Below, one piece after another: positions 19,841 through 61,388 of a stretch of 64,000 bases of DNA (position 1 is its first letter; every line of letters begins with the position of its first letter). The DNA lies in contig JBDRGY010000001.1 of the NCBI GenBank assembly GCA_043817315.1, positions 9,732 through 73,731 of the forward strand. The letters run 5' to 3'. Source of the DNA: Patescibacteria group bacterium. Its GTDB lineage: Bacteria > Patescibacteriota > Patescibacteriia > JBDRGY01. The notes under the pieces are model-generated. The model did not search any database, was not told the origin of the DNA, and was given only the letters and a program-made list of their open reading frames with translations. The position numbers and the translations under genes are program-made.

Positions 19841-19911
19841 CTATAATAATGGAGGCTTGACAGTATACTAATATTAAGATAAAGTATTAGACTAAATATT
19901 AAAGAAAAATC

Positions 19912-22900
19912 ATGACTAAAAAGGTAATCATTTTAGCGGTGGTTGGCGTTTTTTGCTTATTTTATAGCGCTGATTCAGCTCGGGCTCCTTATAAACAGGA
20001 TAGCCCTCAATTATGTACCCAAAGCTCTGAAGTGCTCGGTATTGATCAATCTGATCCTACGCCCAAGATCGGTTCTGCTAACCCGGCCGCTGTTTATTGT
20101 ACCGAACTTGGCTATAAGCATGATATCATCACCGAAGCTGATTCTAGTCAGCACGCCGATTGCGTTTTCCCTGATAATAGCCGGTGTGATGAATGGTCAT
20201 TTTACTATGGACAATGCGGGCAGACCCATTCTTATTGCGCCCAAAACGGTTACGATATTATTACCAAACAAGCAAATGATAATCCTTATTCTCAAAAGTA
20301 CACGGTTTGTACCGAGAATGGCCGAGAGATCGGGGCGGTGGCTGACTTGATGAATCTGGAGGATAAAATTGTAGGAGCCAGTTATAAACCAACGGCTGAA
20401 GAGATTTTAGCCTCGAAAGACAGTGGATCCGGAAGTAACAGAGTCCTGCCGGATAGTTTTAACTGGCAAGACTTTTTAGGCCAGAATTTTATGACTCCGG
20501 TTAAAGATCAACAGACTTGCCCTCTTTGTTGGGCTTTTTCTGCTATCGGCACTACAGAAGGAATGTATGATATCAGAAATGGTGCTGATTACAATCTGGA
20601 CATGTCCGAACAACAAATAGCTTCATCCGGCGGAGTCGGCTATTGTGCCGGTTACGGCTGTGTCCCCGGTGGTTCAACTAATGCCTTGAATTATATCAGA
20701 GATTATGGTTTGGTCAGTGAAACTTGTTTCCCTTACACCAATAGTGGTTCAACACCCTGCAATCTGTGCAGTGGCTGGGAATCAGAATTGAAGTATATCA
20801 CTGATAAGAATATTGATATTCCTTCGGATACTGAATCAATAAAGGAGTATATTTTTAATCACGGACCGGTCTCGGTTAATATGGCTTTTGATTTTGGAAC
20901 TATTCAGTGGGGAGATTATGATGGCAATAATATTTACCGTTGTGATGAAGGAGACCCCGGTTATGACATCAACCACGCGGTGGTCATCTCCGGCTATAAT
21001 GAGATAGAAGATTATTGGGTAGTCAAGAACAGCTATGGAACATACTGGGGTCAGGGAAACGGAGATGGATACTTCAATGTCGGCTATGGCGAGTGCAACA
21101 TACAGGGCAGTCCTACCGGGGTAGAGCTGGACCATGAATGCGGAGGTTTTGTCTACACCCAAGCTGATGCCACTTTGAATAAAGATTTAATTGGCTGTTC
21201 AAATGGATTGAGCATCATGGCAGATGATATCGCGTTTGATTGCCAAGGCCACAAAATTTCCGGAACCGGATCTGGTGTTGGTATTAATCTTAATGGCAGA
21301 ACCAATGTGACGATTAATAATTGTGTGATAGAAGGCTTTGACACAGGAATAAATCTGGTCAATTCCGAGAATAATCAGTTCTTTGGCAATATTTTCATGA
21401 ACAATAATTTCAATGCTTCTGAAGATGCCAGCTCCAATAATAATAACTGGAATGATGTTGATACTGGAAATTATTGGGATGATTATGAAATCAATCCTGG
21501 ATTGCCATGGGGTTATGAGATTACCGGACCAGGAGATGGCATGGATTACAAATTTTATCTGACAGAAGACAATGTGACAACCTTCAACAACGGTCTACCT
21601 TCAGAGCAATTGACTTTTACCGGAGAAGATATTACAAGATATATTGAACTGCCCAAAGATAATCTAGCAATTGGTGGCGATTTTGAGGTGACAGGCATAG
21701 TCTCTTACACTGCTAATGATGATGAGTTCCAGGATGATTGGGATAGTGCAGGTGAGTTCTATCTGCCGGCTACTTACGGTCCGGAAAAAGCGGTAGACGG
21801 TGATTACGGTACCAAGTCAATTTGTGTTTATGACACTTATTGTGACATATTTGAATATTATGATAGAGATCCCAGTATTACTTCAGCTACCTGGACTTTC
21901 AAATATCAGCTTTATTCCGGAGCCGGCGGAGCTAAAGTAGAATGTTGGAATTATGACACTAGTGCTTATGAACAGTTTTATTATTCTAGTCAAACTAATA
22001 TCCAAACTAAGAGTGCAGCGGTTCCGGCAGCTTGCTTAAGCGGCCCGCAATTGAAAGTGAGAACACCAATGAACGGTTTAGGCGGCGGCGGTTTCCGCTT
22101 ATTTGAAAGTAAAGTAACCTGGGATGAACCGATGTATCCGACCAATCCGGAGATAGAAGTAGGGACCGATGACAATAATCCAGAATGGTCATACAGTGGA
22201 GTATTTGACCAAAGCAATGTAGCCATTGGCGACTTTTCTTATGCTTTGTATCAAGCGCTGAATCACGGGGCTTGTGATTGCACCGGCTGTACTTTAAACG
22301 ACGATACTTGTTCCATCCCGGTCAAATTCCATTCAGCCACCGGCGGAATCCTGGAGTATTCCAATATTGGAGTAAGTCATGCTTCCCCATTTTTAGACAC
22401 TGATAGCGATGGAGTGGCTGATGTGAATGATAATTGTCAGGCAACTTATAACCCGGGACAGGAAGACTTTGACGAAGACGGAATCGGTGATGTCTGTGAC
22501 AACTGCCAAAACGACTACAACCCCGGGCAAGAGGACGGTGATGGTGATCTGATCGGCAACGTCTGCGATAATTGTCCGATTAACTATAACCCCGGCCAAG
22601 AAGACGGTGATGGAGATCTTGTTGGTGATGTCTGTGATAATTGTGAGTTTATTAATAACCCCGGCCAAGAAGATGATGACTCGGATGGGATTGGTAACGT
22701 TTGTGACAACTGTGTGGAAGATTATAACCCAACCCAGTTAAACTCTGATGCCGATGTCTGGGGTGACGCTTGTGACAATTGCCATTTGGTATACAACCCT
22801 GCCCAAGGAGACATTGATACAGACACTGTCGGCGATGCCTGTGATTACGAAGATTATGAATATATTAGGCATTTCTCGGCTGAATATTTGGATACCGGCA

Positions 22901-23364
22901 ATGTCAGTTATGACAATGTAATGGGTGGCGGGCCCTGTAACCAGCCTGGTGGTTGTGAATACACAGACCAAACAACTTCAGTAGCCTTCTGCAATGGACC
23001 GAGTTATCCCAACTATTGTAGCTACCAAGGAACCTGCTACGAGGGAAATGGTTCAGTAATCTTAGATATTGACGGCGATGATCGACACGAAGCCATCTGT
23101 GTCGGTAAGGGCTGGTGGGACTTAGATTCCGGAACTGAGTTAGGTTATGGTTATACGCCGTTACCGGGCATAGAAGTGTGTGAAATGGGTGGTTATCAGT
23201 GGCTACCAGGCGAAACAACCGCTGTGGGTGAATACCTGTGGAGTTACAATAACTTCGGTTGTTGCGGAGATGATGAGGGTGAGTATATTGATGGAATAAC
23301 CTGCAAGAGTTCGATTAGAAAATCAATTCCGGTCAAACAGCCAATTATCGGCTTATTTCGATAA
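19912..23364 (+). CDS. large secreted multidomain protein: signal peptide, papain-like (C1) cysteine peptidase domain, beta-helix-like region, six thrombospondin type-3-like Ca-binding repeats, Cys-rich C-terminus
   Basis: N-terminal hydrophobic leader. QQTCPLCWAFSAIG (catalytic Cys) with NHAVVISGYNE...YWVVKNSYGTYWG (His/Asn/Trp). Six DxDxDGxGDxCDNCxxxYNPxQED repeats at 22393-22850. Own promoter TTGACA-17-TAAAGT at about 19857-19890. Confidence 0.7.
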   Translation: MTKKVIILAVVGVFCLFYSADSARAPYKQDSPQLCTQSSEVLGIDQSDPTPKIGSANPAAVYCTELGYKHDIITEADSSQHADCVFPDNSRCDEWSFYYGQCGQTHSYCAQNGYDIITKQANDNPYSQKYTVCTENGREIGAVADLMNLEDKIVGASYKPTAEEILASKDSGSGSNRVLPDSFNWQDFLGQNFMTPVKDQQTCPLCWAFSAIGTTEGMYDIRNGADYNLDMSEQQIASSGGVGYCAGYGCVPGGSTNALNYIRDYGLVSETCFPYTNSGSTPCNLCSGWESELKYITDKNIDIPSDTESIKEYIFNHGPVSVNMAFDFGTIQWGDYDGNNIYRCDEGDPGYDINHAVVISGYNEIEDYWVVKNSYGTYWGQGNGDGYFNVGYGECNIQGSPTGVELDHECGGFVYTQADATLNKDLIGCSNGLSIMADDIAFDCQGHKISGTGSGVGINLNGRTNVTINNCVIEGFDTGINLVNSENNQFFGNIFMNNNFNASEDASSNNNNWNDVDTGNYWDDYEINPGLPWGYEITGPGDGMDYKFYLTEDNVTTFNNGLPSEQLTFTGEDITRYIELPKDNLAIGGDFEVTGIVSYTANDDEFQDDWDSAGEFYLPATYGPEKAVDGDYGTKSICVYDTYCDIFEYYDRDPSITSATWTFKYQLYSGAGGAKVECWNYDTSAYEQFYYSSQTNIQTKSAAVPAACLSGPQLKVRTPMNGLGGGGFRLFESKVTWDEPMYPTNPEIEVGTDDNNPEWSYSGVFDQSNVAIGDFSYALYQALNHGACDCTGCTLNDDTCSIPVKFHSATGGILEYSNIGVSHASPFLDTDSDGVADVNDNCQATYNPGQEDFDEDGIGDVCDNCQNDYNPGQEDGDGDLIGNVCDNCPINYNPGQEDGDGDLVGDVCDNCEFINNPGQEDDDSDGIGNVCDNCVEDYNPTQLNSDADVWGDACDNCHLVYNPAQGDIDTDTVGDACDYEDYEYIRHFSAEYLDTGNVSYDNVMGGGPCNQPGGCEYTDQTTSVAFCNGPSYPNYCSYQGTCYEGNGSVILDIDGDDRHEAICVGKGWWDLDSGTELGYGYTPLPGIEVCEMGGYQWLPGETTAVGEYLWSYNNFGCCGDDEGEYIDGITCKSSIRKSIPVKQPIIGLFR

Positions 23365-26606: not shown

Positions 26607-26876
26607 ATGTACTACACCTATGTATTGCTGAGCTTTAAAGACAAGAAATTCTATATTGGATATACAAATGATATTGTTAAAAGGGTCAGGAACCATAATA
26701 AGGGAAAAGTAACGTCGACGAAATACCGTCAGCCTTTAAAGCTAATATATTATGAGGCGTGTTTAAATAAAGATGATGCCATTACCAGAGAAAAATACCT
26801 GAAATCCGGAGTGGGAAAACGCTATATAAAGAATAGGCTAAAGAAGTTTCTCGACAAAAATTTGTTTCGGGGTTGA
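26607..26876 (+). CDS. small GIY-YIG nuclease-superfamily protein (YhbQ/UPF0213-like), copy 1
   Basis: YTYVLLSFKDKKFYIGYTNDIVKRVRNHNKG, 89 aa. Confidence 0.7.
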   Translation: MYYTYVLLSFKDKKFYIGYTNDIVKRVRNHNKGKVTSTKYRQPLKLIYYEACLNKDDAITREKYLKSGVGKRYIKNRLKKFLDKNLFRG

Positions 26877-26930
26877 CACATCAGGATAATTAAGATAAAA
26901 TATTGATTACCTAATAATTTAAGGATAAAT

Positions 26931-30491: not shown

Positions 30492-30519
30492 TTGACAAAT
30501 TGGACCTATAGGGTAAGAT
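30492..30519 (+). promoter_or_regulatory. promoter TTGACA-16-TAAGAT for GC-rich OMPdc-like gene
   Basis: cttgacaaattggacctatagggtaagat, about 75 nt before the RBS ggaggtagcATG. Confidence 0.5.
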
Positions 30520-52413: not shown

Positions 52414-54396
<1,983 letters not shown>

Positions 54397-54407
54397 TGTT
54401 TAAATTA

Positions 54408-54431
54408 CCACCCCGCCGCAAGGCGGGGTGG
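54408..54431 (+). terminator. terminator hairpin after dnaK
   Basis: ccaccccgcc-gcaa-ggcggggtgg. The T-tract is weak (cttactta). Confidence 0.5.
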
Positions 54432-54439
54432 CTTACTTA

Positions 54440-54721
54440 ATGAACGTGGTATATAAAAATATGAATTGGAAAAGATTTTTTAAGCCAACTATTTGGACAT
54501 TATTACTTACCATTGTAATTTTCGCTGGATTTTACGAGTTAATCTTGTCTTATGGTACTGGACTACATGTTGATTGTTTTGAATGGCACGAAGGGTGTGG
54601 ATATCATCCGCCAAGGTTTGATTTGGGGATTGGCTTTAAAGGCATGCTAGTATTAGCTTACTTCTTATCCTATTTGATCTCTTGTTTGTTGTTATATTTT
54701 ATTAAGAGAGAGAAAAAGTAA
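54440..54721 (+). CDS. hypothetical membrane protein
   Basis: AT-rich ORF with three hydrophobic segments. The ATG at 54440 is preferred over the upstream GTG. Confidence 0.35.
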   Translation: MNVVYKNMNWKRFFKPTIWTLLLTIVIFAGFYELILSYGTGLHVDCFEWHEGCGYHPPRFDLGIGFKGMLVLAYFLSYLISCLLLYFIKREKK

Positions 54722-54724
54722 TAA

Positions 54725-54973
54725 ATGAAAAAGTCAGAACGTTTCTTGGCTAAAGCCAAGCAGGAGGGCTATGATATTCCTCAAAAGTACCTGACCAAGT
54801 ATAAACTGCCCAAGTATCAGGATTTCATTATTTTGGGCAAATGTTGGCGAGCGCTCAAGAAAAAGAAGTTGTCTAAGGAGGATCGGCAGCAGGTGCGCTT
54901 TATTATGACTCAACTGCTAGCCAAATGGCGGCCGCCGTTGGAGAAAGAGATAGATAGGATTTTGAGAAAATAA
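54725..54973 (+). CDS. hypothetical small basic protein
   Basis: ORF only. Confidence 0.3.
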   Translation: MKKSERFLAKAKQEGYDIPQKYLTKYKLPKYQDFIILGKCWRALKKKKLSKEDRQQVRFIMTQLLAKWRPPLEKEIDRILRK

Positions 54974-55014
54974 GAGATTCGTAATTGGATATTCGTAATT
55001 CGGGGGATTTTTTT

Positions 55015-55057
55015 GTTGGAAAAAGAAGAACCCCTGCACCACGATGTGATGCAGGGG
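55015..55057 (-). terminator. island terminator T1 (minus strand): hairpin cccctgcatcacatcgtggtgcagggg + T-rich tail
   Basis: Plus-strand cccctgcaccacgatgtgatgcagggg at 55030-55056, preceded by aaaaagaagaa on the plus strand. Near-identical to T2. Confidence 0.6.
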
Positions 55058-55088
55058 GTGCCCGAGATGGGCAAGGTGCGGATAGGAG

Positions 55089-55340
55089 TTACATGATAGG
55101 TCCGGAGATTTCTCCCATTCTATGCATCTCCTTGATCAGCTTGAAGAGCAGGAGCAGAGTATGAGAGGTAGCTTGGTCTACCTCTTCAGGGCTGGGTTCG
55201 CTGCCCTTTTCTTGGTGCAGGTTCTGGCGGACAGCATCCTCGATCCCGATGCGAGCCAGGTCAGCCCTTTCTTCTTCGCTGAGATTGAGAGTAGGATCCT
55301 TCAGAATCCTACTCATCTTGGTCATCGGTTTGCTGGCCAT
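55089..55340 (-). CDS. island gene J, hypothetical (83 aa), GC-rich
   Basis: ORF on the minus strand, last gene before T1. Confidence 0.4.
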   Translation of the reverse strand: MASKPMTKMSRILKDPTLNLSEEERADLARIGIEDAVRQNLHQEKGSEPSPEEVDQATSHTLLLLFKLIKEMHRMGEISGPIM

Positions 55341-55412
55341 TATTGACTCCTCTTTTCTCCAGCCAAAGCTGGGAAACCGTTAGTGGCTACCTCCCAACGA
55401 AAATAGGCTGAC

Positions 55413-55643
55413 TCAATCAATTACCAGAGAACCCGGCAAGAAGATGCGCGAGTTCGGGTGGCCCTCGATCGTGCCGTCGGGTGTTATCTTAACAGTATTA
55501 GTGCCGTCCACAAATTGGCACCCGCCGCTGGCAAAGGCTACAACTATTTGCGGCTTCATCAGCCTGCAGCTTGTCATTACGTCATTGCCTATTCCCGATA
55601 TGCAGATTATATCTGCCTTGCTGATCGCCTCGGCCCAGTTCAT
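55413..55643 (-). CDS. island gene I, hypothetical (76 aa) with ITPDGTIEG motif; may be fused with gene H if a frameshift is present
   Basis: ORF. It is 16 nt downstream of H in a different frame. Confidence 0.4.
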   Translation of the reverse strand: MNWAEAISKADIICISGIGNDVMTSCRLMKPQIVVAFASGGCQFVDGTNTVKITPDGTIEGHPNSRIFLPGSLVID

Positions 55644-55659
55644 CTCATCTCCTGTGTGT

Positions 55660-55989
55660 TTACCATGTTTCGAAGCAGCGGTGAAACTGCACCCGTTCTT
55701 GCAGCTCGATCCAGGCTCGTATTGGTGCCCGGTCCACCTGAACCCAGACCTGGCTTTTTATGTACCAGGTATCCTCGTTAACATCGAATCTCCCGTCCTT
55801 TTCCCGGTAAAGACGGCCTTGGTAATCCATCAGGAAACGAACTGAACCATCTTGGTCATTGACCATGGTCAGGATAGCCCCCTCTTTGACCAATTCAACG
55901 GCCTCGGGTTTTCCTTCCCAGGTCCCGCCATTCTTTAAGTCGTTGATGCGAAAGGGCTGTTCCGTATTGGCCAGACTGGCGATACTCAT
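55660..55989 (-). CDS. island gene H, hypothetical (109 aa)
   Basis: ORF with RBS agaggagag. Minus-strand promoter TTGACT-17-TATGAT at 56035-56062. Confidence 0.45.
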   Translation of the reverse strand: MSIASLANTEQPFRINDLKNGGTWEGKPEAVELVKEGAILTMVNDQDGSVRFLMDYQGRLYREKDGRFDVNEDTWYIKSQVWVQVDRAPIRAWIELQERVQFHRCFETW

Positions 55990-56034
55990 GGTGGCTCTCC
56001 TCTAAGGTGATTGAATGAAACGAACGGTTATTTA

Positions 56035-56062
56035 TCATATTAGAAACCACTAATTCAGTCAA
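56035..56062 (-). promoter_or_regulatory. island promoter P_H (TTGACT-17-TATGAT, minus strand)
   Basis: Reverse complement reads gtttgactgaattagtggtttctaatatgat. Confidence 0.5.
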
Positions 56063-56097
56063 ACAAAAAATCCCTGCACCACGTAGGTGATGCAGGG
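56063..56097 (-). terminator. island terminator T2 (minus strand)
   Basis: Plus-strand ccctgcaccacgtaggtgatgcaggg, preceded by aaacaaaaaat. On the minus strand this is a hairpin followed by atttttgttt. Confidence 0.6.
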
Positions 56098-56124
56098 CAT
56101 AGAGTTAGCAAAGAACAGTTGAAG

Positions 56125-56418
56125 TCAACTTTGAGGTTGACCTCTTCTCTGGCGAATCTGCTGGCCGCCTTTGATGTCTTCCTGGATCTCCAATTGCTGG
56201 TTTCTGTCGTGGACGTTGATGCCGTTGTCGTCAATGGTCACCGTGCCTGGCCGGGTTCCATGGATGACCACAGCCAGTCCGTCCCGGTATTCCTTGCAGT
56301 CAGCAATCTGACCTTTGAGGATGATCTTGGGTGCAGAGGTTCCCTTATCACCGGTGACTGACTGGGTCTTATCTACCAGTCGGGCAGACTGACCGAGTAA
56401 AACCTGACGATCGATCAT
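56125..56418 (-). CDS. island gene G, hypothetical (97 aa)
   Basis: ORF, 13 nt downstream of gene F. Confidence 0.4.
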   Translation of the reverse strand: MIDRQVLLGQSARLVDKTQSVTGDKGTSAPKIILKGQIADCKEYRDGLAVVIHGTRPGTVTIDDNGINVHDRNQQLEIQEDIKGGQQIRQRRGQPQS

Positions 56419-56431
56419 TAGCGTGCTCCTT

Positions 56432-57070
56432 TCAGACCTGACAGGCTCGAGCCGGGGGATAGACCCAGCTGTTACCCTGAAACTGGGTGACCAAGGGCAC
56501 TTCTATCACGAAGCCCTCGTCCTCTTCACTATCGATAACCTGAGCGAAGCAATCATGAAAAGCCCCAGCGGTCGGCTTGATCGTTCCGTCAGTTCGGATC
56601 ATCACTATGTGTTCCGGACCCTCGGAATTATCTTCATGGACGGTGACCAGGGTAATAACCACGATGTCAGGATCGCGCTCCGAAATGATCGGCCCTTCGA
56701 CTCTGCCTTGACGGATGACCTTTCCTGAACTGGCCTTGACGATCTGCAGGCCGTGGCAATCACGCAGCACGCTTTGCAGGAATTCGACGGGCAGGTGACG
56801 CCTTTCGGTAATCGGTAACCAGGTGCCATCTTCACCGATACGACGCTCGATCCGTATCTCGGGGATAGCCGAGTAGAACCCATCTGGTGTCACGGTAATT
56901 ATTCGGGGTTCGATGTCGTTGGGTCCCATCATCTTGATGTCCACTGGTCCCTTGGTATCTGACTGAGGGGTTATTTCTTCAACGGATCCCTCAAAAAGGA
57001 CTGCCCCATCCCGGTCAATCCGTGGATCTACTGCCCTGACCTGATCGTAATCAGCTAGCAAAACAGCCAT
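56432..57070 (-). CDS. island gene F, hypothetical (212 aa) with repeated (I/V)TPDG / RTDGTIKP motifs
   Basis: ORF. Promoter P_F lies upstream. Confidence 0.45.
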   Translation of the reverse strand: MAVLLADYDQVRAVDPRIDRDGAVLFEGSVEEITPQSDTKGPVDIKMMGPNDIEPRIITVTPDGFYSAIPEIRIERRIGEDGTWLPITERRHLPVEFLQSVLRDCHGLQIVKASSGKVIRQGRVEGPIISERDPDIVVITLVTVHEDNSEGPEHIVMIRTDGTIKPTAGAFHDCFAQVIDSEEDEGFVIEVPLVTQFQGNSWVYPPARACQV

Positions 57071-57135
57071 TGACCGATTCTCCTTATGGACTGCTGGGCC
57101 GATAGTAACCCACTGGAATGAGAAAAACTGGCTCT

Positions 57136-57164
57136 ATCTTATTAAAAACTAGAAGTTTAGTCAA
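57136..57164 (-). promoter_or_regulatory. island promoter P_F (TTGACT-17-TAAGAT, minus strand)
   Basis: Reverse complement reads ttgactaaacttctagtttttaataagat. Confidence 0.5.
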
Positions 57165-57165
57165 G

Positions 57166-57191
57166 AAAAAAAGCCCTGCAATTTGCAGAGC
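57166..57191 (-). terminator. island terminator T3 (minus strand)
   Basis: Plus-strand aaaaaaa + gccctgcaatttgcagagc. Confidence 0.55.
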
Positions 57192-57210
57192 TTGGGGAAT
57201 GAGTCCTAGA

Positions 57211-57771
57211 TTAGTCCTCATCTCGATCAGTGTCGATGAAGAGAACCTGTTGCCACTCCAACCAGTCATCAGAGTCTGACTTCCGAAACTGTACTACAGC
57301 ATTACCAGGTTGGTTGGCCAAGGAACCGTCCACGGTTCTGACAAGCAGACGCCTATCATTACCGCCTAGGTTGAGAAAATCTCCAGTACGGTAATGATCA
57401 AGGTAGCCGAAAGAAAGCCCATGTGGGACCTGCTGGTCGGCATTCCAGATACGGATAGACCAGCCAACTTGTACTACTTCATTGTGGTGAGCTTCCCAGG
57501 GCCCGAACCGGATCAGACTGCTAAGTTCCTGCCATCTGTCTGGTAGGTATACAACAGAGATAACCACCGAGGGATGGCTAAGACACTTACCGTCCCGTCC
57601 CACTTCGTAGGTTTGTTCTCCGATATGTTCCAAATCGACAGTGAAAGCCAAGCCGGACTCAGTCGGCCTCACTTTGGTAATTTCGGCAATCGGAGCTTCT
57701 GATCCTGGGGTCAGGGTACAAACGATTTTAACCAGCTGTTCCGGCTTGATAAAATCATGAATGATCATCAT
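57211..57771 (-). CDS. island gene E, hypothetical (~186 aa from MMIIHDF...), paralog of gene A (shared W-x-RIW-N/D-A and DDWLEWQQV motifs)
   Basis: ORF in the track runs 57211..57801. RBS gggagga precedes the ATGATG at 57771. Confidence 0.45.
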   Translation of the reverse strand: MMIIHDFIKPEQLVKIVCTLTPGSEAPIAEITKVRPTESGLAFTVDLEHIGEQTYEVGRDGKCLSHPSVVISVVYLPDRWQELSSLIRFGPWEAHHNEVVQVGWSIRIWNADQQVPHGLSFGYLDHYRTGDFLNLGGNDRRLLVRTVDGSLANQPGNAVVQFRKSDSDDWLEWQQVLFIDTDRDED

Positions 57772-57815
57772 TCCTCCCGTTTGGCGGTTTCTTCCTTTCA
57801 ATGTGCAATTAAACT

Positions 57816-57844
57816 ATCTTAGGAAATTAAGCCAAATAAGTCAA
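57816..57844 (-). promoter_or_regulatory. island promoter P_E (TTGACT-17-TAAGAT, minus strand)
   Basis: Reverse complement reads ttgacttatttggcttaatttcctaagat. Confidence 0.5.
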
Positions 57845-57871
57845 GTAACACAGCACCAGGTTCGGTGCAGG

Positions 57872-57901
57872 ATAAAAAAACCCCGTCAAAAACGACAGGG
57901 T
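57872..57901 (-). terminator. island terminator T4 (minus strand)
   Basis: Plus-strand aaaaaaa + ccccgtcaaaaacgacaggg. Confidence 0.55.
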
Positions 57902-57914
57902 CTAAGGAACGAAG

Positions 57915-58574
57915 TTAAGAGGTTAGTTGCCTGCGGCGATACAGCACAGCGGCGCGTTCGTCCACTGGGACAAAACCCAGTTCCGGCACTTCTTTCTCCA
58001 CGATGAAGTGGTCGTAGAACTGTGGGGGATCAGCACTGATTTGATGTGAGCCAGAATCACGTCCCGCTGCCAGGCGCAGGAAAAATCCCCGATTATGATC
58101 TGGAGGCATCTGCCGGATGTTGCCGGTAAAGATGATGCCCTTTTTCTGGCCTATACGGCGACGTCGCTCCTCGGTGTTGACGATGCGGACCACATCAGCT
58201 ACTTGGAAACGGCCTACTTGATGAGGATCCAGCTGACCTTGCAGCAGCAGCCAGGCCAGATCCTGATTGGCCATCAGGAAAGTGAGGAAGAACCAAGTGT
58301 CCTCGATTCTGACCAGGATTTCGATGACACCTCGCTTGGGGTAGGAGAAGTTGGGTGTAATGGTCTCAGCGACCTTACCACCCAGGTTAACCGTCAGCTT
58401 CTTCAAGGCGTGGAAGGGTCTATCCAGACGAATCTCTGCCTCCCGATCAGTAAAGGGGAGTCTGCCCAGCTCAATAAGGAGTTCAGCGAATTGGCTGGGG
58501 CGGATCCTGACACTTCTTCCTTTACAGAGAAGTAGTTTCAGTAGATCCAGAGGATACCTCTGTCTCTTGATCAT
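57915..58574 (-). CDS. island gene D, hypothetical (219 aa)
   Basis: ORF, third gene of the B-C-D unit. Confidence 0.4.
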   Translation of the reverse strand: MIKRQRYPLDLLKLLLCKGRSVRIRPSQFAELLIELGRLPFTDREAEIRLDRPFHALKKLTVNLGGKVAETITPNFSYPKRGVIEILVRIEDTWFFLTFLMANQDLAWLLLQGQLDPHQVGRFQVADVVRIVNTEERRRRIGQKKGIIFTGNIRQMPPDHNRGFFLRLAAGRDSGSHQISADPPQFYDHFIVEKEVPELGFVPVDERAAVLYRRRQLTS

Positions 58575-58589
58575 CTCTGACTCCTCGTC

Positions 58590-58871
58590 TCAATCATCAA
58601 CCCCGAACCTAACTTGCTTGAGAGTGGCACCGTCTTGGACAAAGAGCCGGAACTCATCACCAGGAACCGGCACCTGGCCATCGAAGGAGCAATTGAACAT
58701 GCATTCGCTTCGGCCAGTGACCATCTCTATCTGGACACCAACTCCCAGGTCGGTCAGTCTGGCAAACCTTCCTTTCAGATGATATTCACCGGCCAGGATG
58801 CGTTCGCTGGGAGTCTTGGGATCAGCCACTACTATAGTGTCGCCCGGGGTTAATCTTTCCACGGTTTCCAT
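58590..58871 (-). CDS. island gene C, hypothetical (93 aa)
   Basis: ORF. Confidence 0.4.
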   Translation of the reverse strand: METVERLTPGDTIVVADPKTPSERILAGEYHLKGRFARLTDLGVGVQIEMVTGRSECMFNCSFDGQVPVPGDEFRLFVQDGATLKQVRFGVDD

Positions 58872-58883
58872 TCAGCCTCTCCT

Positions 58884-59432
58884 TTATCGGGACAGCTTGT
58901 CTAGAGTGATCCATTTGCTGGCACCGGCGACCCAGTAAAACATCATCTGATCCTGCTGGCCCTTGATGTTGCCCTCGAGGTCGATGGTGGCTTGACGGTC
59001 TGTCTTGTTCTTGTCGCGATAGGTGACAATCCAGCCTTCTGGTGGATGATTGACCCTAATCAGGTCATTGATGGTGCCTTCCAGCAGGATCTCGGGATTG
59101 CCGTCTGGATCTTGAGACGGATAACCAATACCGATATAATCTCCGTCTCTTAGCGCTGCCCGCATGACCATTTCCTTTCTCGGCTCGGTAACTTGCCTCC
59201 ATTTTTCTTCAATTGGCAGCCGGTACTCGATTTTTTCTTCCGGATAGTCCACTAAGACTCCGTCAGGCTGGACTAACAGCCAGTCGTAGTTGATGCCCTT
59301 GCCTGGTCTGATCAGCCAGATACAGAAGTTATCTCCAGCTGTCTTTAAAGACATTATCAAGCCCAGATATTCCTCGGTTCCGTCAGGGTGGATACGACGG
59401 ATCCGATCTCCTTCCTGCAGGTAGAAGGCCAT
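58884..59432 (-). CDS. island gene B, hypothetical (182 aa) with HPDG/QPDG motifs
   Basis: ORF with RBS aataggag. Confidence 0.45.
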   Translation of the reverse strand: MAFYLQEGDRIRRIHPDGTEEYLGLIMSLKTAGDNFCIWLIRPGKGINYDWLLVQPDGVLVDYPEEKIEYRLPIEEKWRQVTEPRKEMVMRAALRDGDYIGIGYPSQDPDGNPEILLEGTINDLIRVNHPPEGWIVTYRDKNKTDRQATIDLEGNIKGQQDQMMFYWVAGASKWITLDKLSR

Positions 59433-59477
59433 TAGTAGCTCCTATTTGATGTCGATTTCTAAGGTGCGAATTGGGTT

Positions 59478-59506
59478 ATCTTAGCCAATATAATATATAA
59501 AGTCAA
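59478..59506 (-). promoter_or_regulatory. island promoter P_B (TTGACT-17-TAAGAT, minus strand)
   Basis: Reverse complement reads ttgactttatatattatattggctaagat. Confidence 0.5.
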
Positions 59507-59507
59507 G

Positions 59508-59541
59508 AAATAAAAACCCCGCTAAGTCTAATTTAGCGGGG
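59508..59541 (-). terminator. island terminator T5 (minus strand)
   Basis: Plus-strand aaataaaaa + ccccgctaagtctaatttagcgggg. Confidence 0.6.
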
Positions 59542-59550
59542 GACTAATGA

Positions 59551-60195
59551 TCAAGCTGCTGCCTCCACTTTGCCACCAATTGGCCATTTGGCACGGGCTT
59601 CCTCGGGCGGTGTCGGTTGTAAGCAGTATGCTTCGAAGGTAACTAGCCCCAGTTTGTTGCCGAACCAGCGGTAGATTTGGTAGGTTCGTTTACCATCCCT
59701 GACTCTGGCATCAAACCTGGCAAAAACTGGTACGTCCCTGTAAGCAGCATTCCGCACCGTGATGATGACGCCATCGGGGGTTACCCGGGTACCCTGGACT
59801 TTGCCACTGACTAGTACACCTACCCGGCCGCCGCGTTGGCGATCCTTCCTGCGCAGAGATTCGGGTACGGGAGTATCTGATATTTGAATGATGGTTTCCC
59901 TGGGCATAGTTGAAAAGGGTAGGGTGTAGCCTGGACCCAGGGCACAGACATCGTACCAGTCCAGCCATTCCTCAGATCCAGGTTCCTGGAACTGGACAAA
60001 ACGGGTGCTCCTGGAATTAACCACTGAACCGTCACAGCAATTCATGTGGATGCTATATCCCTTTTTATCAGAATTCCACAGGATGGAACCGGTTCCAGAA
60101 TGTCCTTGGTACTCCCATTCTTTCACGCACTTGTCGGCGACAGCGTCCCAGATACGTAGATGCCAGCCTTTACCGACTTGCTTTCTCTCGGGCAT
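59551..60195 (-). CDS. island gene A, hypothetical (214 aa), paralog of gene E
   Basis: ORF. Motifs WHLRIWDAVA and SEEWLDWYDV match WSIRIWNADQ and SDDWLEWQQV of gene E. Confidence 0.45.
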   Translation of the reverse strand: MPERKQVGKGWHLRIWDAVADKCVKEWEYQGHSGTGSILWNSDKKGYSIHMNCCDGSVVNSRSTRFVQFQEPGSEEWLDWYDVCALGPGYTLPFSTMPRETIIQISDTPVPESLRRKDRQRGGRVGVLVSGKVQGTRVTPDGVIITVRNAAYRDVPVFARFDARVRDGKRTYQIYRWFGNKLGLVTFEAYCLQPTPPEEARAKWPIGGKVEAAA

Positions 60196-60337
60196 CAGTT
60201 ATCCCTTTCGGCGCTGGCGCCAGCCTTCGGGTCGTTTACTGCCTCGATTCCTTCTAGAGGTGATTCCTAGTGAACTGTGGGTCAGGGTTAACCAGTTACC
60301 GTTTCGCGAAAGAAATTTCAGACATAGGTAACCAGGA

Positions 60338-60514
60338 TCACTGAAGTTGTTGTTTGGATTTATCTGATACACTATCGCGTCTTCGTATCATCATGACGGA
60401 TACTTTCTCACCTTCGATTTGATAACCGCCGTAATGTCCATGAGCTACTGGTTCTCCGACATTACTATCAAGGACACGAAGACGGGTTACGCCCTTGACC
60501 ACTTGTTTTCCCAT
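60338..60514 (-). CDS. island gene L, small hypothetical (58 aa, below track cutoff): MGKQVVKGVTRLRVLDSNVGEPVAHGHYGGYQIEGEKVSVMMIRRRDSVSDKSKQQLQ
   Basis: Hand translation. RBS ggaggg precedes the ATG at 60514. Confidence 0.4.
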   Translation of the reverse strand: MGKQVVKGVTRLRVLDSNVGEPVAHGHYGGYQIEGEKVSVMMIRRRDSVSDKSKQQLQ

Positions 60515-60560
60515 TTGGCACCCTCCAGCTTAGGTACTTAAATAAAGAACGAATTTATAT

Positions 60561-60589
60561 ATCTTATTAAATAGGTTATACTTAGTCAA
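60561..60589 (-). promoter_or_regulatory. island promoter P_L (TTGACT-17-TAAGAT, minus strand)
   Basis: Reverse complement reads ttgactaagtataacctatttaataagat. Confidence 0.5.
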
Positions 60590-60596
60590 GTGGCAC

Positions 60597-60633
60597 AATA
60601 AAAATAGGCCCTGCCAGTTTAGCCTGACAGGGC
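60597..60633 (-). terminator. island terminator T6 (minus strand)
   Basis: Plus-strand aataaaaatag + gccctgccagtttagcctgacagggc. Confidence 0.6.
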
Positions 60634-60652
60634 AAAGAACAGATGGAGGTCC

Positions 60653-60937
60653 TTAGTCGATACAGCCGAGGGCGATGAGGGTCTGACGACTCAGGCGAAT
60701 ACAGCCGAGGTCAGGATCTTCACAGTGCATCTCCCTGGCACCGTTGGCCCAGAGAGTGGCATCATGCATCACTTCGATGGACTGTACGCGGCCATTCTCA
60801 GTGATTTTAAAGAAGGTGCGGCCGTCACGGGCCGATATGTCCGATAAAGTCATGGGAAAGGCCCGTGGTACAAATTCCTCGCGGGCAGTGTCGTAGAGCC
60901 GGAGCCTGGAGCCCGGTTTCAACCTGCCTGTGCACAT
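60653..60937 (-). CDS. island gene K, hypothetical (94 aa)
   Basis: ORF with an upstream divergent intergenic region. Confidence 0.4.
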   Translation of the reverse strand: MCTGRLKPGSRLRLYDTAREEFVPRAFPMTLSDISARDGRTFFKITENGRVQSIEVMHDATLWANGAREMHCEDPDLGCIRLSRQTLIALGCID

Positions 60938-61085
60938 GAGTTACCTCCGTGGGCGTTTTCAAGGAATTCCCCGAAAACAAGCCAAAAGTGCCCTTATTTA
61001 TCCACAACAATTATTAATGATATCAGAAATTGCTAATGTTAGCAATTATCATATCAAGTATGACAATTAGGAAAGGAAAAACTTT

Positions 61086-61388
61086 ATGAACGGACAAAAT
61101 CCCCAGCAGCAACAGCAAATCCAGATCAAAATCCCCGATGAGGTATTAAAGGGTTTTCACGCTAATATGATGGCTGTGGCCCACTCCAAAGAAGAATTTG
61201 TGTTGGATTATATCAACGTTTATCCGTGGCAGAAATCCGGTATTGTGGGCGCGCGAATAATTTTGACGCCGGGACATCTGAAACGAATCATCTCCGCCTT
61301 AGCCGAAAATCTGAAAAAGTACGAAAAACAATTTGGCAAGATTGAAGAAGCTAAAGCACCCTCTGAAGAGATTGGCTTCAAAACCTAG
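61086..61388 (+). CDS. hypothetical protein (100 aa, Gln-rich N-terminus)
   Basis: AT-rich ORF. Palindrome attgctaa-tg-ttagcaat in its upstream region (61039-61056). Confidence 0.4.
   Translation: MNGQNPQQQQQIQIKIPDEVLKGFHANMMAVAHSKEEFVLDYINVYPWQKSGIVGARIILTPGHLKRIISALAENLKKYEKQFGKIEEAKAPSEEIGFKT

What the first reader, a model, noticed from the sequence alone, without database searches (positions are those of the whole stretch)
55015..60633. Repeated terminator-promoter junction modules with near-identical TTGACT-N17-TAAGAT promoters
Five minus-strand promoters (56035-62, 57136-64, 57816-44, 59478-506, 60561-89) share -35 TTGACT, an exact 17-nt spacer and -10 TAAGAT (TATGAT once). Each lies within 1-30 nt of the GC-hairpin terminator of the preceding unit. 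Terminators T1 (55030-56) and T2 (56072-97) are near-identical 26-nt sequences (ccctgcaccacg..gtgatgcaggg). This suggests duplication of junction cassettes or strong co-regulation by one sigma factor. The pyrF-like gene elsewhere in the window (30492-30519) also uses -10 TAAGAT.
Basis: seen in the sequence. Interest (0 to 1): 0.6.

Follow-up and report, generated by a model that had tools for sequence, protein, structure and literature searches.

The report
Insulated promoter–terminator units in an orphan-gene island
A 6.7-kb foreign-looking island in an uncultured Patescibacteria genome is split into small, separately transcribed gene units, each with nearly the same standard promoter and its own terminator; the parts are ordinary, the genes have no known relatives, and their function is unknown.

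Summary
Five minus-strand sites match cTTGACT-N17-TA(A/T)GATa. These are the only such sites in 64 kb (0.02 expected). Each lies 6-33 nt after a stable hairpin plus T-run. The T1 and T2 arms are identical, including a shared T·G wobble.

They punctuate a 6.7-kb island (54.4-61.1 kb; GC 51% vs 42%) between dnaK and a DUF3467 gene in a Patescibacteria MAG. The island holds 12 small minus-strand ORFs, each with an SD-like motif. None matches Pfam, and the ten also tested match no PHROGs, PADLOC or NCBIfam family. The five proteins searched found only this MAG among billions of sequences.

Housekeeping promoters in the window (rpsL, rplU, hrcA and others) are the same class but read TTGACA, never TTGACT.

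Weak paralogy links unit A to C and unit B to D. The junctions also share short segments in a mosaic pattern. Spacers are near-random (41% identity), whereas the 14 core positions are 94% identical. This points to old duplication of whole units with selection keeping the hexamers.

Relatives carry different minus-strand orphan cassettes, with similar terminator-to-promoter junctions, at the same dnaK-DUF3467 site. The site is therefore a variable hotspot.

Verdict: real but ordinary σ70-type promoters and intrinsic terminators in a moron-like orphan island. Cargo function is unknown. Interest is modest.

The parts
54397..61085 (.). Variable region between dnaK (52429-54396, +) and the DUF3467 gene (61086-61388, +). 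The GC-rich minus-strand island proper spans about 54974-61085.
   Evidence: GC is 0.48-0.53 against about 0.42 in the host. GC3 is 0.51-0.66 against 0.36-0.50. Flanking genes were identified. In relatives the same gap measures 0.16, 0.7, 2.1 or 7.8 kb.
61017..61045 (-). Candidate promoter of the first island gene. It is a different type: TTGCTA-N17-TATCAT with an upstream TG. Its -35 lies inside the inverted repeat TTGCTAA-CA-TTAGCAA.
60653..60937 (-). o60653 (94 aa), the first island gene. It is an orphan.
60608..60633 (-). Terminator after o60653: GCCCTGTCAGG...CTGGCAGGGC followed by a T-run.
   Evidence: -20.3 kcal/mol, z = -4.3.
60561..60589 (-). Promoter P_A: TTGACT-N17-TAAGAT.
59551..60514 (-). 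Unit A. It contains o60338 (60338-60514, 58 aa), a 142-nt non-coding gap, and o59551 (59551-60195, 214 aa; ABIB97_00515).
59517..59541 (-). Terminator of unit A.
   Evidence: -15.5 kcal/mol, z = -4.1.
59478..59506 (-). Promoter P_B: TTGACT-N17-TAAGAT.
57915..59432 (-). Unit B. It contains o58884 (58884-59432, 182 aa), o58590 (58590-58871, 93 aa) and o57915 (57915-58574, 219 aa; ABIB97_00500).
57853..57903 (-). Terminator of unit B (57903-57878), followed by a second small hairpin (57868-57853).
   Evidence: -24.1 kcal/mol, z = -4.5.
57816..57844 (-). Promoter P_C: TTGACT-N17-TAAGAT.
57211..57771 (-). Unit C: o57211 (186 aa). Its C-terminal domain is paralogous to the N-terminus of o59551.
57171..57193 (-). 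Terminator of unit C.
   Evidence: -13.9 kcal/mol, z = -3.5.
57136..57164 (-). Promoter P_D: TTGACT-N17-TAAGAT.
56125..57070 (-). Unit D. It contains o56432 (56432-57070, 212 aa; ABIB97_00490) and o56125 (56125-56418, 97 aa). They are paralogous to the N- and C-terminal parts of o58884.
56072..56097 (-). Terminator T2. Its arms are identical to those of T1.
   Evidence: -20.3 kcal/mol, z = -5.1.
56034..56062 (-). Promoter P_E: TTGACT-N17-TATGAT. Its spacer matches that of P_D at 11 of 17 positions.
55089..55989 (-). Unit E. It contains o55660 (55660-55989, 109 aa), o55413 (55413-55643, 76 aa) and o55089 (55089-55340, 83 aa).
55031..55057 (-). Terminator T1, at the end of the island. Its T-run is interrupted (TTCTTCTTTTT).
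   Evidence: -22.4 kcal/mol, z = -3.9.

Best explanation
The five sites are working group-1 (σ70/σA-type) promoters, and the six hairpins are intrinsic terminators. Together they divide a lineage-specific orphan-gene island into one leading gene plus five insulated units of 1-3 genes each. The island is either horizontally acquired or evolving very fast.

Inferred mechanism:
- The host RNA polymerase holoenzyme binds cTTGACT and TAAGATa across the optimal 17-bp spacer.
- Transcription starts about 7 nt downstream, in a weakly conserved AATT(C/G) patch.
- The 5'UTR is about 38 nt; the distance from the -10 hexamer to the ATG is 44-46 nt in 4 of 5 units.
- Each unit ends at its own hairpin plus U-tract.
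- The T-tract of each terminator abuts the next -35 hexamer, so each unit is expressed on its own without read-through.

Inferred origin: the array grew by duplication of whole units (A~C, B~D, with the D and E regulatory parts related), followed by recombination among junctions. The cargo diverged to about 30% identity or beyond recognition, while selection held the promoter hexamers and the terminator stems.

What is shown: the motifs, their statistics, the hairpin stabilities, the composition shift, the paralogy, the orphan status and the hotspot synteny. What is inferred: actual transcription starts and stops, the sigma factor used, and the evolutionary route. The function of the cargo is unknown.
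For: - Motif: 5 hits against 0.02 expected, all at unit starts.
- Core versus spacer: the 14 core positions are 94% identical, while spacers are 41% identical against 34% expected.
- Terminators: ΔG of -14 to -24 kcal/mol, z of -3.5 to -5.1. They are 12-fold denser in the island than in the host sequence.
- Coding evidence: every one of the 12 ORFs has an SD-like motif (a GGAG-containing one for 11; AGGGA for o59551) a few nt before its ATG (read from the sequence). GC1 > GC2 periodicity fits real coding sequence.
- Same promoter class in the host: TTGACA-N17-TAnnnT precedes rpsL, rplU, a class II aminoacyl-tRNA synthetase gene and hrcA.
- Both hexamer variants occur in mapped strong E. coli promoters of phage T7. 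A1 has a TTGACT -35 and A2 has a TAAGAT -10.
- Paralogy between units.
- Mosaic shared k-mers between junctions.
- Island status: GC and GC3 shift. dnaK and DUF3467 are adjacent in L007 and L206, but separated by unrelated inserts in L204, L202, L001 and L002.
- Those inserts also carry minus-strand small genes with terminator-to-promoter junctions.
Against: - There are no transcript data, so promoters and terminators are predictions only.
- The less constrained promoter positions (the sixth base of the -35, and the middle AG of the -10) are also invariant. Selection for generic σ70 binding alone does not predict that.
- The source is a MAG, and the island borders were not checked against reads.
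- No homologue of any tested cargo protein exists, so neither conservation nor function could be tested.
- Only 64 kb of a contig of at least 321 kb could be scanned for the motif.
Confidence: 0.6

Rival explanations
1. The island is a remnant or cargo of a phage or other mobile element. On this view it is an early-gene or host-takeover-like module, or a run of morons, whose uniform strong promoters came in with the element. This does not exclude the main explanation. It adds a claim about origin.
For: - Small orphan proteins, uniform near-consensus promoters, SD-like motifs before every ORF, and one terminator per unit. This mirrors the SPO1 host-takeover module as described in PMC6873191 and the definition of morons in PMC2920897.
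- GC is 9 points above the host.
- The island sits in a recurrently variable site.
Against: - No PHROGs hit for the 10 proteins tested.
- No relatives in IMG/VR for two proteins.
- No blastn or tblastn match in 50,697 phage records or 72,556 plasmids.
- No recognisable domain (hence no recognisable integrase) in any island ORF or in the small ORFs next to the island; no tRNA gene nearer than about 7 kb. The rest of the window was not scanned for an integrase.
- No phage structural or replication genes nearby.
Confidence: 0.2
2. The invariant cTTGACT and TAAGATa are read by a dedicated factor that turns all five units on together as a regulon. The factor would be an island-encoded or alternative sigma or activator, not just the housekeeping sigma.
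For: - Positions that normally drift in σ70 promoters are fixed in 4-5 of 5 sites.
- Host promoters in the same window vary at these positions: their -10 hexamers read TAAAGT, TATGAT, TAAAAT, TATAAT and TAAATT, and their -35 hexamers end in A or G.
- Four island proteins are basic, with pI 8.9-10.1.
Against: - No σ70-family or DNA-binding domain was detected in any island protein.
- No conserved operator-like element lies in the spacers or flanks.
- The hexamers lie well inside the ordinary σ70 range, and both occur in T7 A1 and A2.
Confidence: 0.1
3. Assembly or binning chimera. On this view a fragment of another organism or element was joined into the Patescibacteria contig, and the modules belong to a different genome.
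For: There is a sharp composition change at both borders. The cargo has no relatives among the host's kin.
Against: - Both flanks are syntenic with relatives.
- The insert sits exactly in the dnaK-DUF3467 gap, which also holds variable minus-strand cassettes in four related genomes from independent assemblies.
- A misjoin that enters and leaves within a single intergenic gap is unlikely.
- The 5'UTR and intergenic parts have host-like GC, 0.36-0.43.
Confidence: 0.05
4. Nothing special: chance matches to a generic consensus in AT-rich intergenic DNA.
For: σ70-like matches are common in AT-rich spacers. The scan finds 31 promoter-like sites in 12 kb against 14.7 in shuffles.
Against: - 5 exact matches against 0.02 expected.
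- All are on the coding strand, at unit starts, directly after terminators.
- The distance from -10 to ATG is 44-46 nt in 4 of 5 units.
Confidence: 0.02

Closest known systems
Group-1 (σ70/σA) promoters paired with intrinsic (Rho-independent) terminators
   Same: TTGACx -35, 17-bp spacer, TAnnnT -10, a GC-rich hairpin plus U-tract after the stop codon, and SD-led genes. Housekeeping genes in the same window use the same class.
   Different: The five copies are far more uniform than the host set. They always read TTGACT, where the host reads TTGACA. They are packed at about 1 promoter and 1 terminator per kb, against about 0.1 terminators per kb elsewhere.
Phage morons, as defined in PMC2920897 citing Hendrix et al.
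   Same: Extra genes with their own promoter and terminator, a GC content unlike the surroundings, and sitting in hotspots where different cargo is found in different genomes.
   Different: The island is not inside a prophage and has no phage genes around it. It holds five units in a row that are partly paralogous to each other. None is found in any other genome.
SPO1 host-takeover module (PMC6873191; Stewart et al. 1998, cited there)
   Same: A cluster of mostly small genes of unknown fold, arranged in many short operons. Each has a strong host-type promoter and ribosome-binding site.
   Different: That module is in a virulent phage's terminal redundancy. Here the context is chromosomal, there is no sequence similarity, and no evidence of toxicity or early timing.
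T7 early promoters A1 and A2
   Same: A1 has the -35 hexamer TTGACT. A2 has the -10 hexamer TAAGAT followed by A. These are the two hexamers combined here.
   Different: This is a resemblance of hexamers only. The spacers are 17 and 18 nt, the flanks are different, and no homology is implied.
Integron cassette arrays
   Same: A one-directional array of small, mostly orphan cassettes at a fixed chromosomal site, with a hairpin at every cassette boundary.
   Different: No recognisable integrase in the island or its adjacent genes. The hairpins are short perfect stems followed by T-runs, not attC sites. Every unit has its own promoter, whereas integron cassettes are typically promoterless.

Membership tests
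σ70/σA-type (group 1) promoter | -35 hexamer close to TTGACA | tested here: met
   TTGACT in 5 of 5 sites, which is 5 of 6 consensus bases.
σ70/σA-type (group 1) promoter | Spacer of 17±1 bp and a -10 hexamer of the form TAnnnT | tested here: met
   The spacer is 17 nt in all five. The -10 is TAAGAT four times and TATGAT once.
σ70/σA-type (group 1) promoter | Position upstream of a gene, with a plausible 5'UTR | tested here: met
   The distance from the -10 to the ATG is 44-46 nt in four units and 65 nt in one. An SD-like motif precedes each ATG.
σ70/σA-type (group 1) promoter | A mapped transcription start or holoenzyme-dependent transcription | not testable with these tools
   This needs dRNA-seq, 5'RACE or in-vitro transcription.
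Intrinsic terminator | Stable GC-rich hairpin directly followed by a U-tract | tested here: met
   Six hairpins of 9-12 bp, with ΔG of -13.9 to -24.1 kcal/mol and z of -3.5 to -5.1. The T-run of T1 is interrupted.
Intrinsic terminator | Location just after a stop codon on the coding strand | tested here: met
   The stems start 9-31 nt after the stop codons.
Intrinsic terminator | Measured termination (3' ends at the U-tract) | not testable with these tools
   This needs Term-seq or an in-vitro assay.
Phage moron | Own promoter and/or terminator | tested here: met
Phage moron | GC content different from the surrounding genes | tested here: met
   GC 0.50-0.57 against 0.39-0.46; GC3 0.51-0.66 against 0.36-0.50.
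Phage moron | Inserted between phage genes of a (pro)phage | tested here: not met
   The flanks are dnaK and a DUF3467 gene. There are no PHROGs hits and no match in phage collections.
Integron cassette array | IntI integrase next to the array, and attC sites at cassette ends | tested here: not met
   None of the island ORFs or the adjacent genes tested has a recognisable domain of any recombinase; the whole window was not scanned. The boundary hairpins are terminator-like, with short perfect stems plus a T-run.
Integron cassette array | Promoterless cassettes expressed from a common Pc promoter | tested here: not met
   Each unit has its own promoter-like site.
Intergenic mobile repeat (MITE, Correia-like) carrying a promoter and terminator | Copies alike along their whole length, with terminal inverted repeats | tested here: not met
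   Junction alignment gives 48% mean identity. Only short mosaic segments are shared, and no terminal repeats were found.

The most novel reading that the evidence does not exclude
The dnaK-DUF3467 gap in this Patescibacteria clade may be a previously undescribed kind of cassette-accumulating locus. Self-contained units of terminator, σ70-type promoter and orphan gene would pile up there in one fixed orientation, antisense to the flanks, without any recognisable integrase. Within each genome the junctions would be kept alike, by junction-to-junction recombination or by a clade-specific requirement of the transcription machinery. The genome-specific junction forms seen are TTGACT/TAAGAT in the window, TTTTTTTATCC...TTGACT in L002, and ttttcaaaaaacttt..TTGACAaaat in L202. 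The cargo could be a fast-turnover set of effector, immunity or anti-phage proteins used by these episymbionts.
Probability: 0.15. Interest if true: 0.6.

Novelty: new member of a known kind. Interest (0 to 1): 0.33.

Why it matters
The finding gives five near-identical, well-delimited candidate promoters and six clean terminators in a phylum where, in the literature search run here, no mapped transcription signals turned up. They are useful test cases for metatranscriptome mapping, and possibly as expression parts.

It also flags a variable hotspot next to dnaK in which several related Patescibacteria keep different orphan mini-operons. That is a place to look for the fast-evolving genes that may mediate host or phage interactions in these reduced genomes.

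The individual elements are standard bacterial signals, and the function of the cargo remains unknown.

Tried and rejected
- Function from homology: no Pfam hit for any of the 12 island proteins, and no PHROGs, PADLOC or NCBIfam hit for the ten tested there.
- Word-indexed searches of 5.8 billion proteins with o59551, o57915 and an o56432/o58884 profile returned only this MAG.
- Full HMMER of an o57211/o59551 profile against 1.84 billion representatives returned only those two proteins, plus many-stretch hits in giant repetitive proteins. I judge those hits spurious, because their Pfam matches are unrelated Ig, LRR and fn3 repeats or sub-threshold noise.
- Exact-sequence look-ups of o59551 and the DUF3467 protein found no contig on record.
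- AlphaFold2 on single sequences of o59551 and o57915 gave pLDDT 31 and 33, which is unusable, so no fold search was run.
- IMG/VR: no relatives of o56432 or o57211. The T1/T2 terminator pattern is absent.
- blastn of the whole island against the phage and plasmid collections, and tblastn of o57915 against phages, gave no match.
- Rfam at gathering and at E ≤ 1 found nothing relevant. The 142-nt gap in unit A folds no better than shuffles, z = -0.17.
- Relic promoter after T1: the alignment suggests TCCAAC-N17-TACGAA, but that is only 2 of 6 and 4 of 6 matches. Rejected as not significant.
- Cross-genome homology of junctions: a 15-mer (GTTTTTTTATCCTGC) is shared with an L002 junction, and a 17-mer is shared with L001. 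The 17-mer lies inside an unrelated ORF with no flanking similarity. This is too weak to claim.
- Literature searches on transcription signals and variable islands in Patescibacteria/CPR found nothing relevant.

Full report

Yes. The pattern TTGACT-N17-TA[AT]GAT occurs five times in the 64-kb window. All five sites are on the minus strand, at 56062-56034, 57164-57136, 57844-57816, 59506-59478 and 60589-60561. Dinucleotide-preserving shuffles give 0.02 expected matches, and none of 100 shuffles reaches five.

The conserved core is one base longer on each side. It reads cTTGACT in 4 of 5 sites and TA(A/T)GATA in 5 of 5.

Each site follows a hairpin plus T-run. The hairpins fold at -13.9 to -24.1 kcal/mol, 3.5-5.1 standard deviations better than shuffles. 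The distance from stem end to the -35 hexamer is 6-33 nt.

T1 (55057-55031) and T2 (56097-56072) have identical 11-nt arms, including the same T·G wobble pair, and differ only in the loop. A shared wobble argues for common descent, not independent selection for a hairpin.

With the same criteria applied to the whole window, strong terminator-like hairpins occur at 1.05 per kb in the island and 0.09 per kb elsewhere.

TTGACA-N16-TAAGAT at 30492-30519 precedes an OMP-decarboxylase gene.

**2. What surrounds the sites?**

The sites punctuate a region at about 54.4-61.1 kb. Its GC is about 51%, against about 42% for the rest of the window. GC3 is 0.51-0.66 in the island and 0.36-0.50 in host genes.

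The region lies between hrcA-grpE-dnaK (dnaK at 52429-54396, +) and a DUF3467 gene (61086-61388, +).

The island holds 12 non-overlapping minus-strand ORFs of 58-219 aa:

| Unit | Promoter | Genes | Terminator |
|---|---|---|---|
| Leading gene | 61045-61017 (different type) | o60653 | 60633-60608 |
| A | 60589-60561 | o60338, o59551 | 59541-59517 |
| B | 59506-59478 | o58884, o58590, o57915 | 57903-57878 |
| C | 57844-57816 | o57211 | 57193-57171 |
| D | 57164-57136 | o56432, o56125 | T2, 56097-56072 |
| E | 56062-56034 | o55660, o55413, o55089 | T1, 55057-55031 |

Evidence that the ORFs are genes:
- Each has an SD-like motif (a GGAG-containing one for 11; AGGGA for o59551) a few bases before its ATG (read from the sequence).
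- Codon-position GC follows the coding pattern GC1 > GC2.
- The source annotation calls at least the six larger ones as genes: the tags returned were ABIB97_00490, _00500, _00510 and _00515, and the two between follow from the numbering.

All 12 proteins are predicted soluble.

**3. Which organism, and is this an island?**

The proteins retrieved belong to an NCBI MAG named 'Patescibacteria group bacterium', on a contig of 321,535 bp.

Among relatives found through DnaK, the gap between dnaK and DUF3467 varies widely:

| Locus | dnaK-DUF3467 gap |
|---|---|
| L007, L206 | about 160 nt (adjacent) |
| L204 | 0.7 kb |
| L202 | 2.1 kb |
| L001, L002 | 7.8 kb |
| window | 6.7 kb |

None of the inserts is homologous to the window's island. 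L001 and L002 share only some cassettes with each other.

The inserts have the same general build:
- Small genes without Pfam matches lie on the strand opposite to dnaK.
- They are separated by hairpin plus T-run followed by TTGACx-N17-TAnnnT.
- Minus-strand matches to that promoter pattern inside the hotspot number 8 in L002, 5 in L001 and 3 in L202. The roughly 14-20 kb of flanks in each locus hold 0-2.
- Junctions resemble each other in a genome-specific way.

The site is therefore a recurrent variable hotspot, and the island in the window is one occupant of it. This also argues against an assembly chimera, which would need to enter and leave within a single intergenic gap.

**4. Are these just the housekeeping promoters?**

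They are the same class but a distinct sub-form. Good matches upstream of rpsL, rplU, a class II aminoacyl-tRNA synthetase gene, hrcA, pyrF and others read TTGACA or TTGACG, then N16-17, then varied -10 hexamers: TAAAGT, TATGAT, TAAAAT, TAAGAT, TATAAT and TAAATT.

None of the nine TTGACN-N17-TAnnnT matches outside the island ends its -35 in T, whereas all five island promoters do (Fisher p = 5e-4). The exact form is therefore confined to the island within these 64 kb. The rest of the genome was not available.

Both hexamers occur in mapped strong E. coli promoters of phage T7. A1 has TTGACT and A2 has TAAGAT followed by A. Ordinary holoenzyme recognition is therefore plausible.

**5. Duplication or selection?**

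Both appear to have acted.

Evidence for duplication of units:
- The o57211 C-terminus aligns with the o59551 N-terminus (score 104 against 30.8±4.9 for shuffles; Gumbel p = 2e-9).
- The o56432 N-terminus aligns with the o58884 N-terminus (p = 3e-6).
- o56125 aligns with the o58884 C-terminus (p = 5e-4).
- Unit A is thus related to unit C, and unit B to unit D. This fits an old duplication of a two-unit block.
- o60338 looks like a truncated third copy of the o59551/o57211 domain, at 36% identity over 33 aa. This evidence is weak.

Evidence from the junctions:
- With the hexamers masked, the six junctions share 13 exact 9-mers against 0.34 expected.
- The sharing is mosaic: CTGTTCTTTGC (J0, J4), CACCTTAGA (J1, J4), CGGGGTTTTT (J1, J2), and the terminator arms (J4, J5).
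- The spacers of P_D and P_E match at 11 of 17 positions. The terminators of the same two units are the T2/T1 pair, although their genes are unrelated.
- Overall junction identity is only 48%. Spacers are near-random, at 41% identity against 34% expected. The 14 core promoter positions are 94% identical.

Recent copying cannot produce that contrast. Purifying selection on the promoters, with some recombination among junctions, can.

One point is left unexplained. The normally tolerant positions, the sixth base of the -35 and the central AG of the -10, are also fixed.

**6. What do the genes do?**

Unknown.
- No Pfam hit for any of the 12 proteins, and no PHROGs, PADLOC or NCBIfam hit for the ten tested there.
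- Three word-indexed searches of 5.8 billion proteins, and one full HMMER search of 1.84 billion representatives, returned only the MAG's own proteins. The HMMER search also returned spurious hits in giant repetitive proteins.
- No relatives in IMG/VR, or in the phage and plasmid collections.
- Single-sequence AlphaFold models were unusable, with pLDDT 31 and 33.
- No Rfam family matches.

**7. Most likely mechanism**

The host RNA polymerase with its primary sigma factor starts at each cTTGACT-N17-TAAGATa, about 7 nt downstream, in a weakly conserved AATT(C/G) patch. It transcribes a 1-3-gene unit with a 5'UTR of about 38 nt and stops at the unit's own hairpin plus U-tract. The next promoter begins within a few bases of that T-tract, so the units are insulated from each other and from the convergent dnaK transcript.

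This is inference from sequence. No step has been observed.

**8. Comparison with known systems**

- Phage morons are the closest in build. They have their own promoter and terminator, deviant GC, and a hotspot location (PMC2920897).
- The SPO1 host-takeover module is also close. It consists of many short operons of small genes with strong host-type promoters and ribosome-binding sites (PMC6873191).
- Membership in either fails on phage context, which was tested and not met.
- Integron arrays and MITE-like intergenic repeats were considered. They fail on their defining features: integrase and attC sites with promoterless cassettes for integrons, and full-length similarity with terminal repeats for MITEs.

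**9. Verdict**

This is a real, statistically solid pattern made of ordinary parts. It is an array of moron-like insulated mini-operons in a lineage-specific orphan island, at a variable hotspot of a Patescibacteria genome.

The more novel possibility is that the hotspot is a distinct cassette-accumulating locus with homogenised junctions. That is not excluded, but it currently rests on four related genomes and weak cross-genome similarity.

Noticed in passing
L001:11924-19720; L002:11909-19833; L202:11924-14030; L204:11795-12495: In related Patescibacteria genomes the same dnaK-DUF3467 gap holds unrelated small minus-strand genes with no Pfam match. They are separated by hairpin plus T-run followed by TTGACx-N17-TAnnnT. 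L002 has at least 7 such junctions in 3 kb, several reading TTTTTTTATCC...TTGACT. Two L202 junctions are nearly identical to each other.
   Followed up: partly
L001:11966-13150 (+) and L001:18452-19009 (+): The hotspot insert of the closest relative also encodes a TIR-domain protein (PF13676, E = 4e-24) and an HD-domain protein. This hints that the site may collect defence-type genes.
   Followed up: no
window 54977-54986 and 54991-55000 (+): A direct repeat ATTCGTAATT occurs twice, 14 nt apart. It sits at the left edge of the GC-rich island, between the stop of a small plus-strand ORF (54725-54973) and terminator T1.
   Followed up: no
window 61045-61030 and 60978-60955 (-): The first island gene, o60653, has a different candidate promoter: TTGCTA-N17-TATCAT with an upstream TG. 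Its -35 lies in a 7-2-7 inverted repeat, TTGCTAA-CA-TTAGCAA. A second palindrome, GTTTTCGGGGAATTCCTTGAAAAC, lies in its 5'UTR. Both look operator-like.
   Followed up: no
window 60196-60337 (-) and o60338 (60338-60514): Unit A has a 142-nt non-coding gap that folds no better than shuffles (z = -0.17). The 58-aa o60338 before it resembles the start of o59551 (36% over 33 aa) and has host-like GC3 (0.32). It may be a truncated duplicate.
   Followed up: partly
window 55062-55078 (-) and L001:13465-13481 (-): An exact 17-mer, CACCTTGCCCATCTCGG, is shared between the 3'UTR of unit E and the antisense strand of an unrelated ORF in L001. There is no similarity on either side. This is probably chance, although only about 4e-4 matches were expected.
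   Followed up: partly
window 57868-57853 (-) and L002 near 18366-18349 (-): The junction between units B and C has a second small hairpin between the terminator and the promoter. Its start shares the 15-mer GTTTTTTTATCCTGC with a terminator-to-promoter junction of L002.
   Followed up: partly
window 19912-23364 (+): This 1150-aa protein combines a papain-type peptidase C1 domain with DUF333, thrombospondin type-3 repeats and a NosD-like domain. That is a large multidomain protease for a reduced genome.
   Followed up: no
window 19857-19885 and 26873-26901 (+): Two host promoters, upstream of the large protease gene and of rplU, share the extended stretch TTAAGATAAA(G/A)T around the -10. TAAGAT therefore also appears in host promoters, but shifted 5 nt upstream of the assigned -10.
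   Followed up: no
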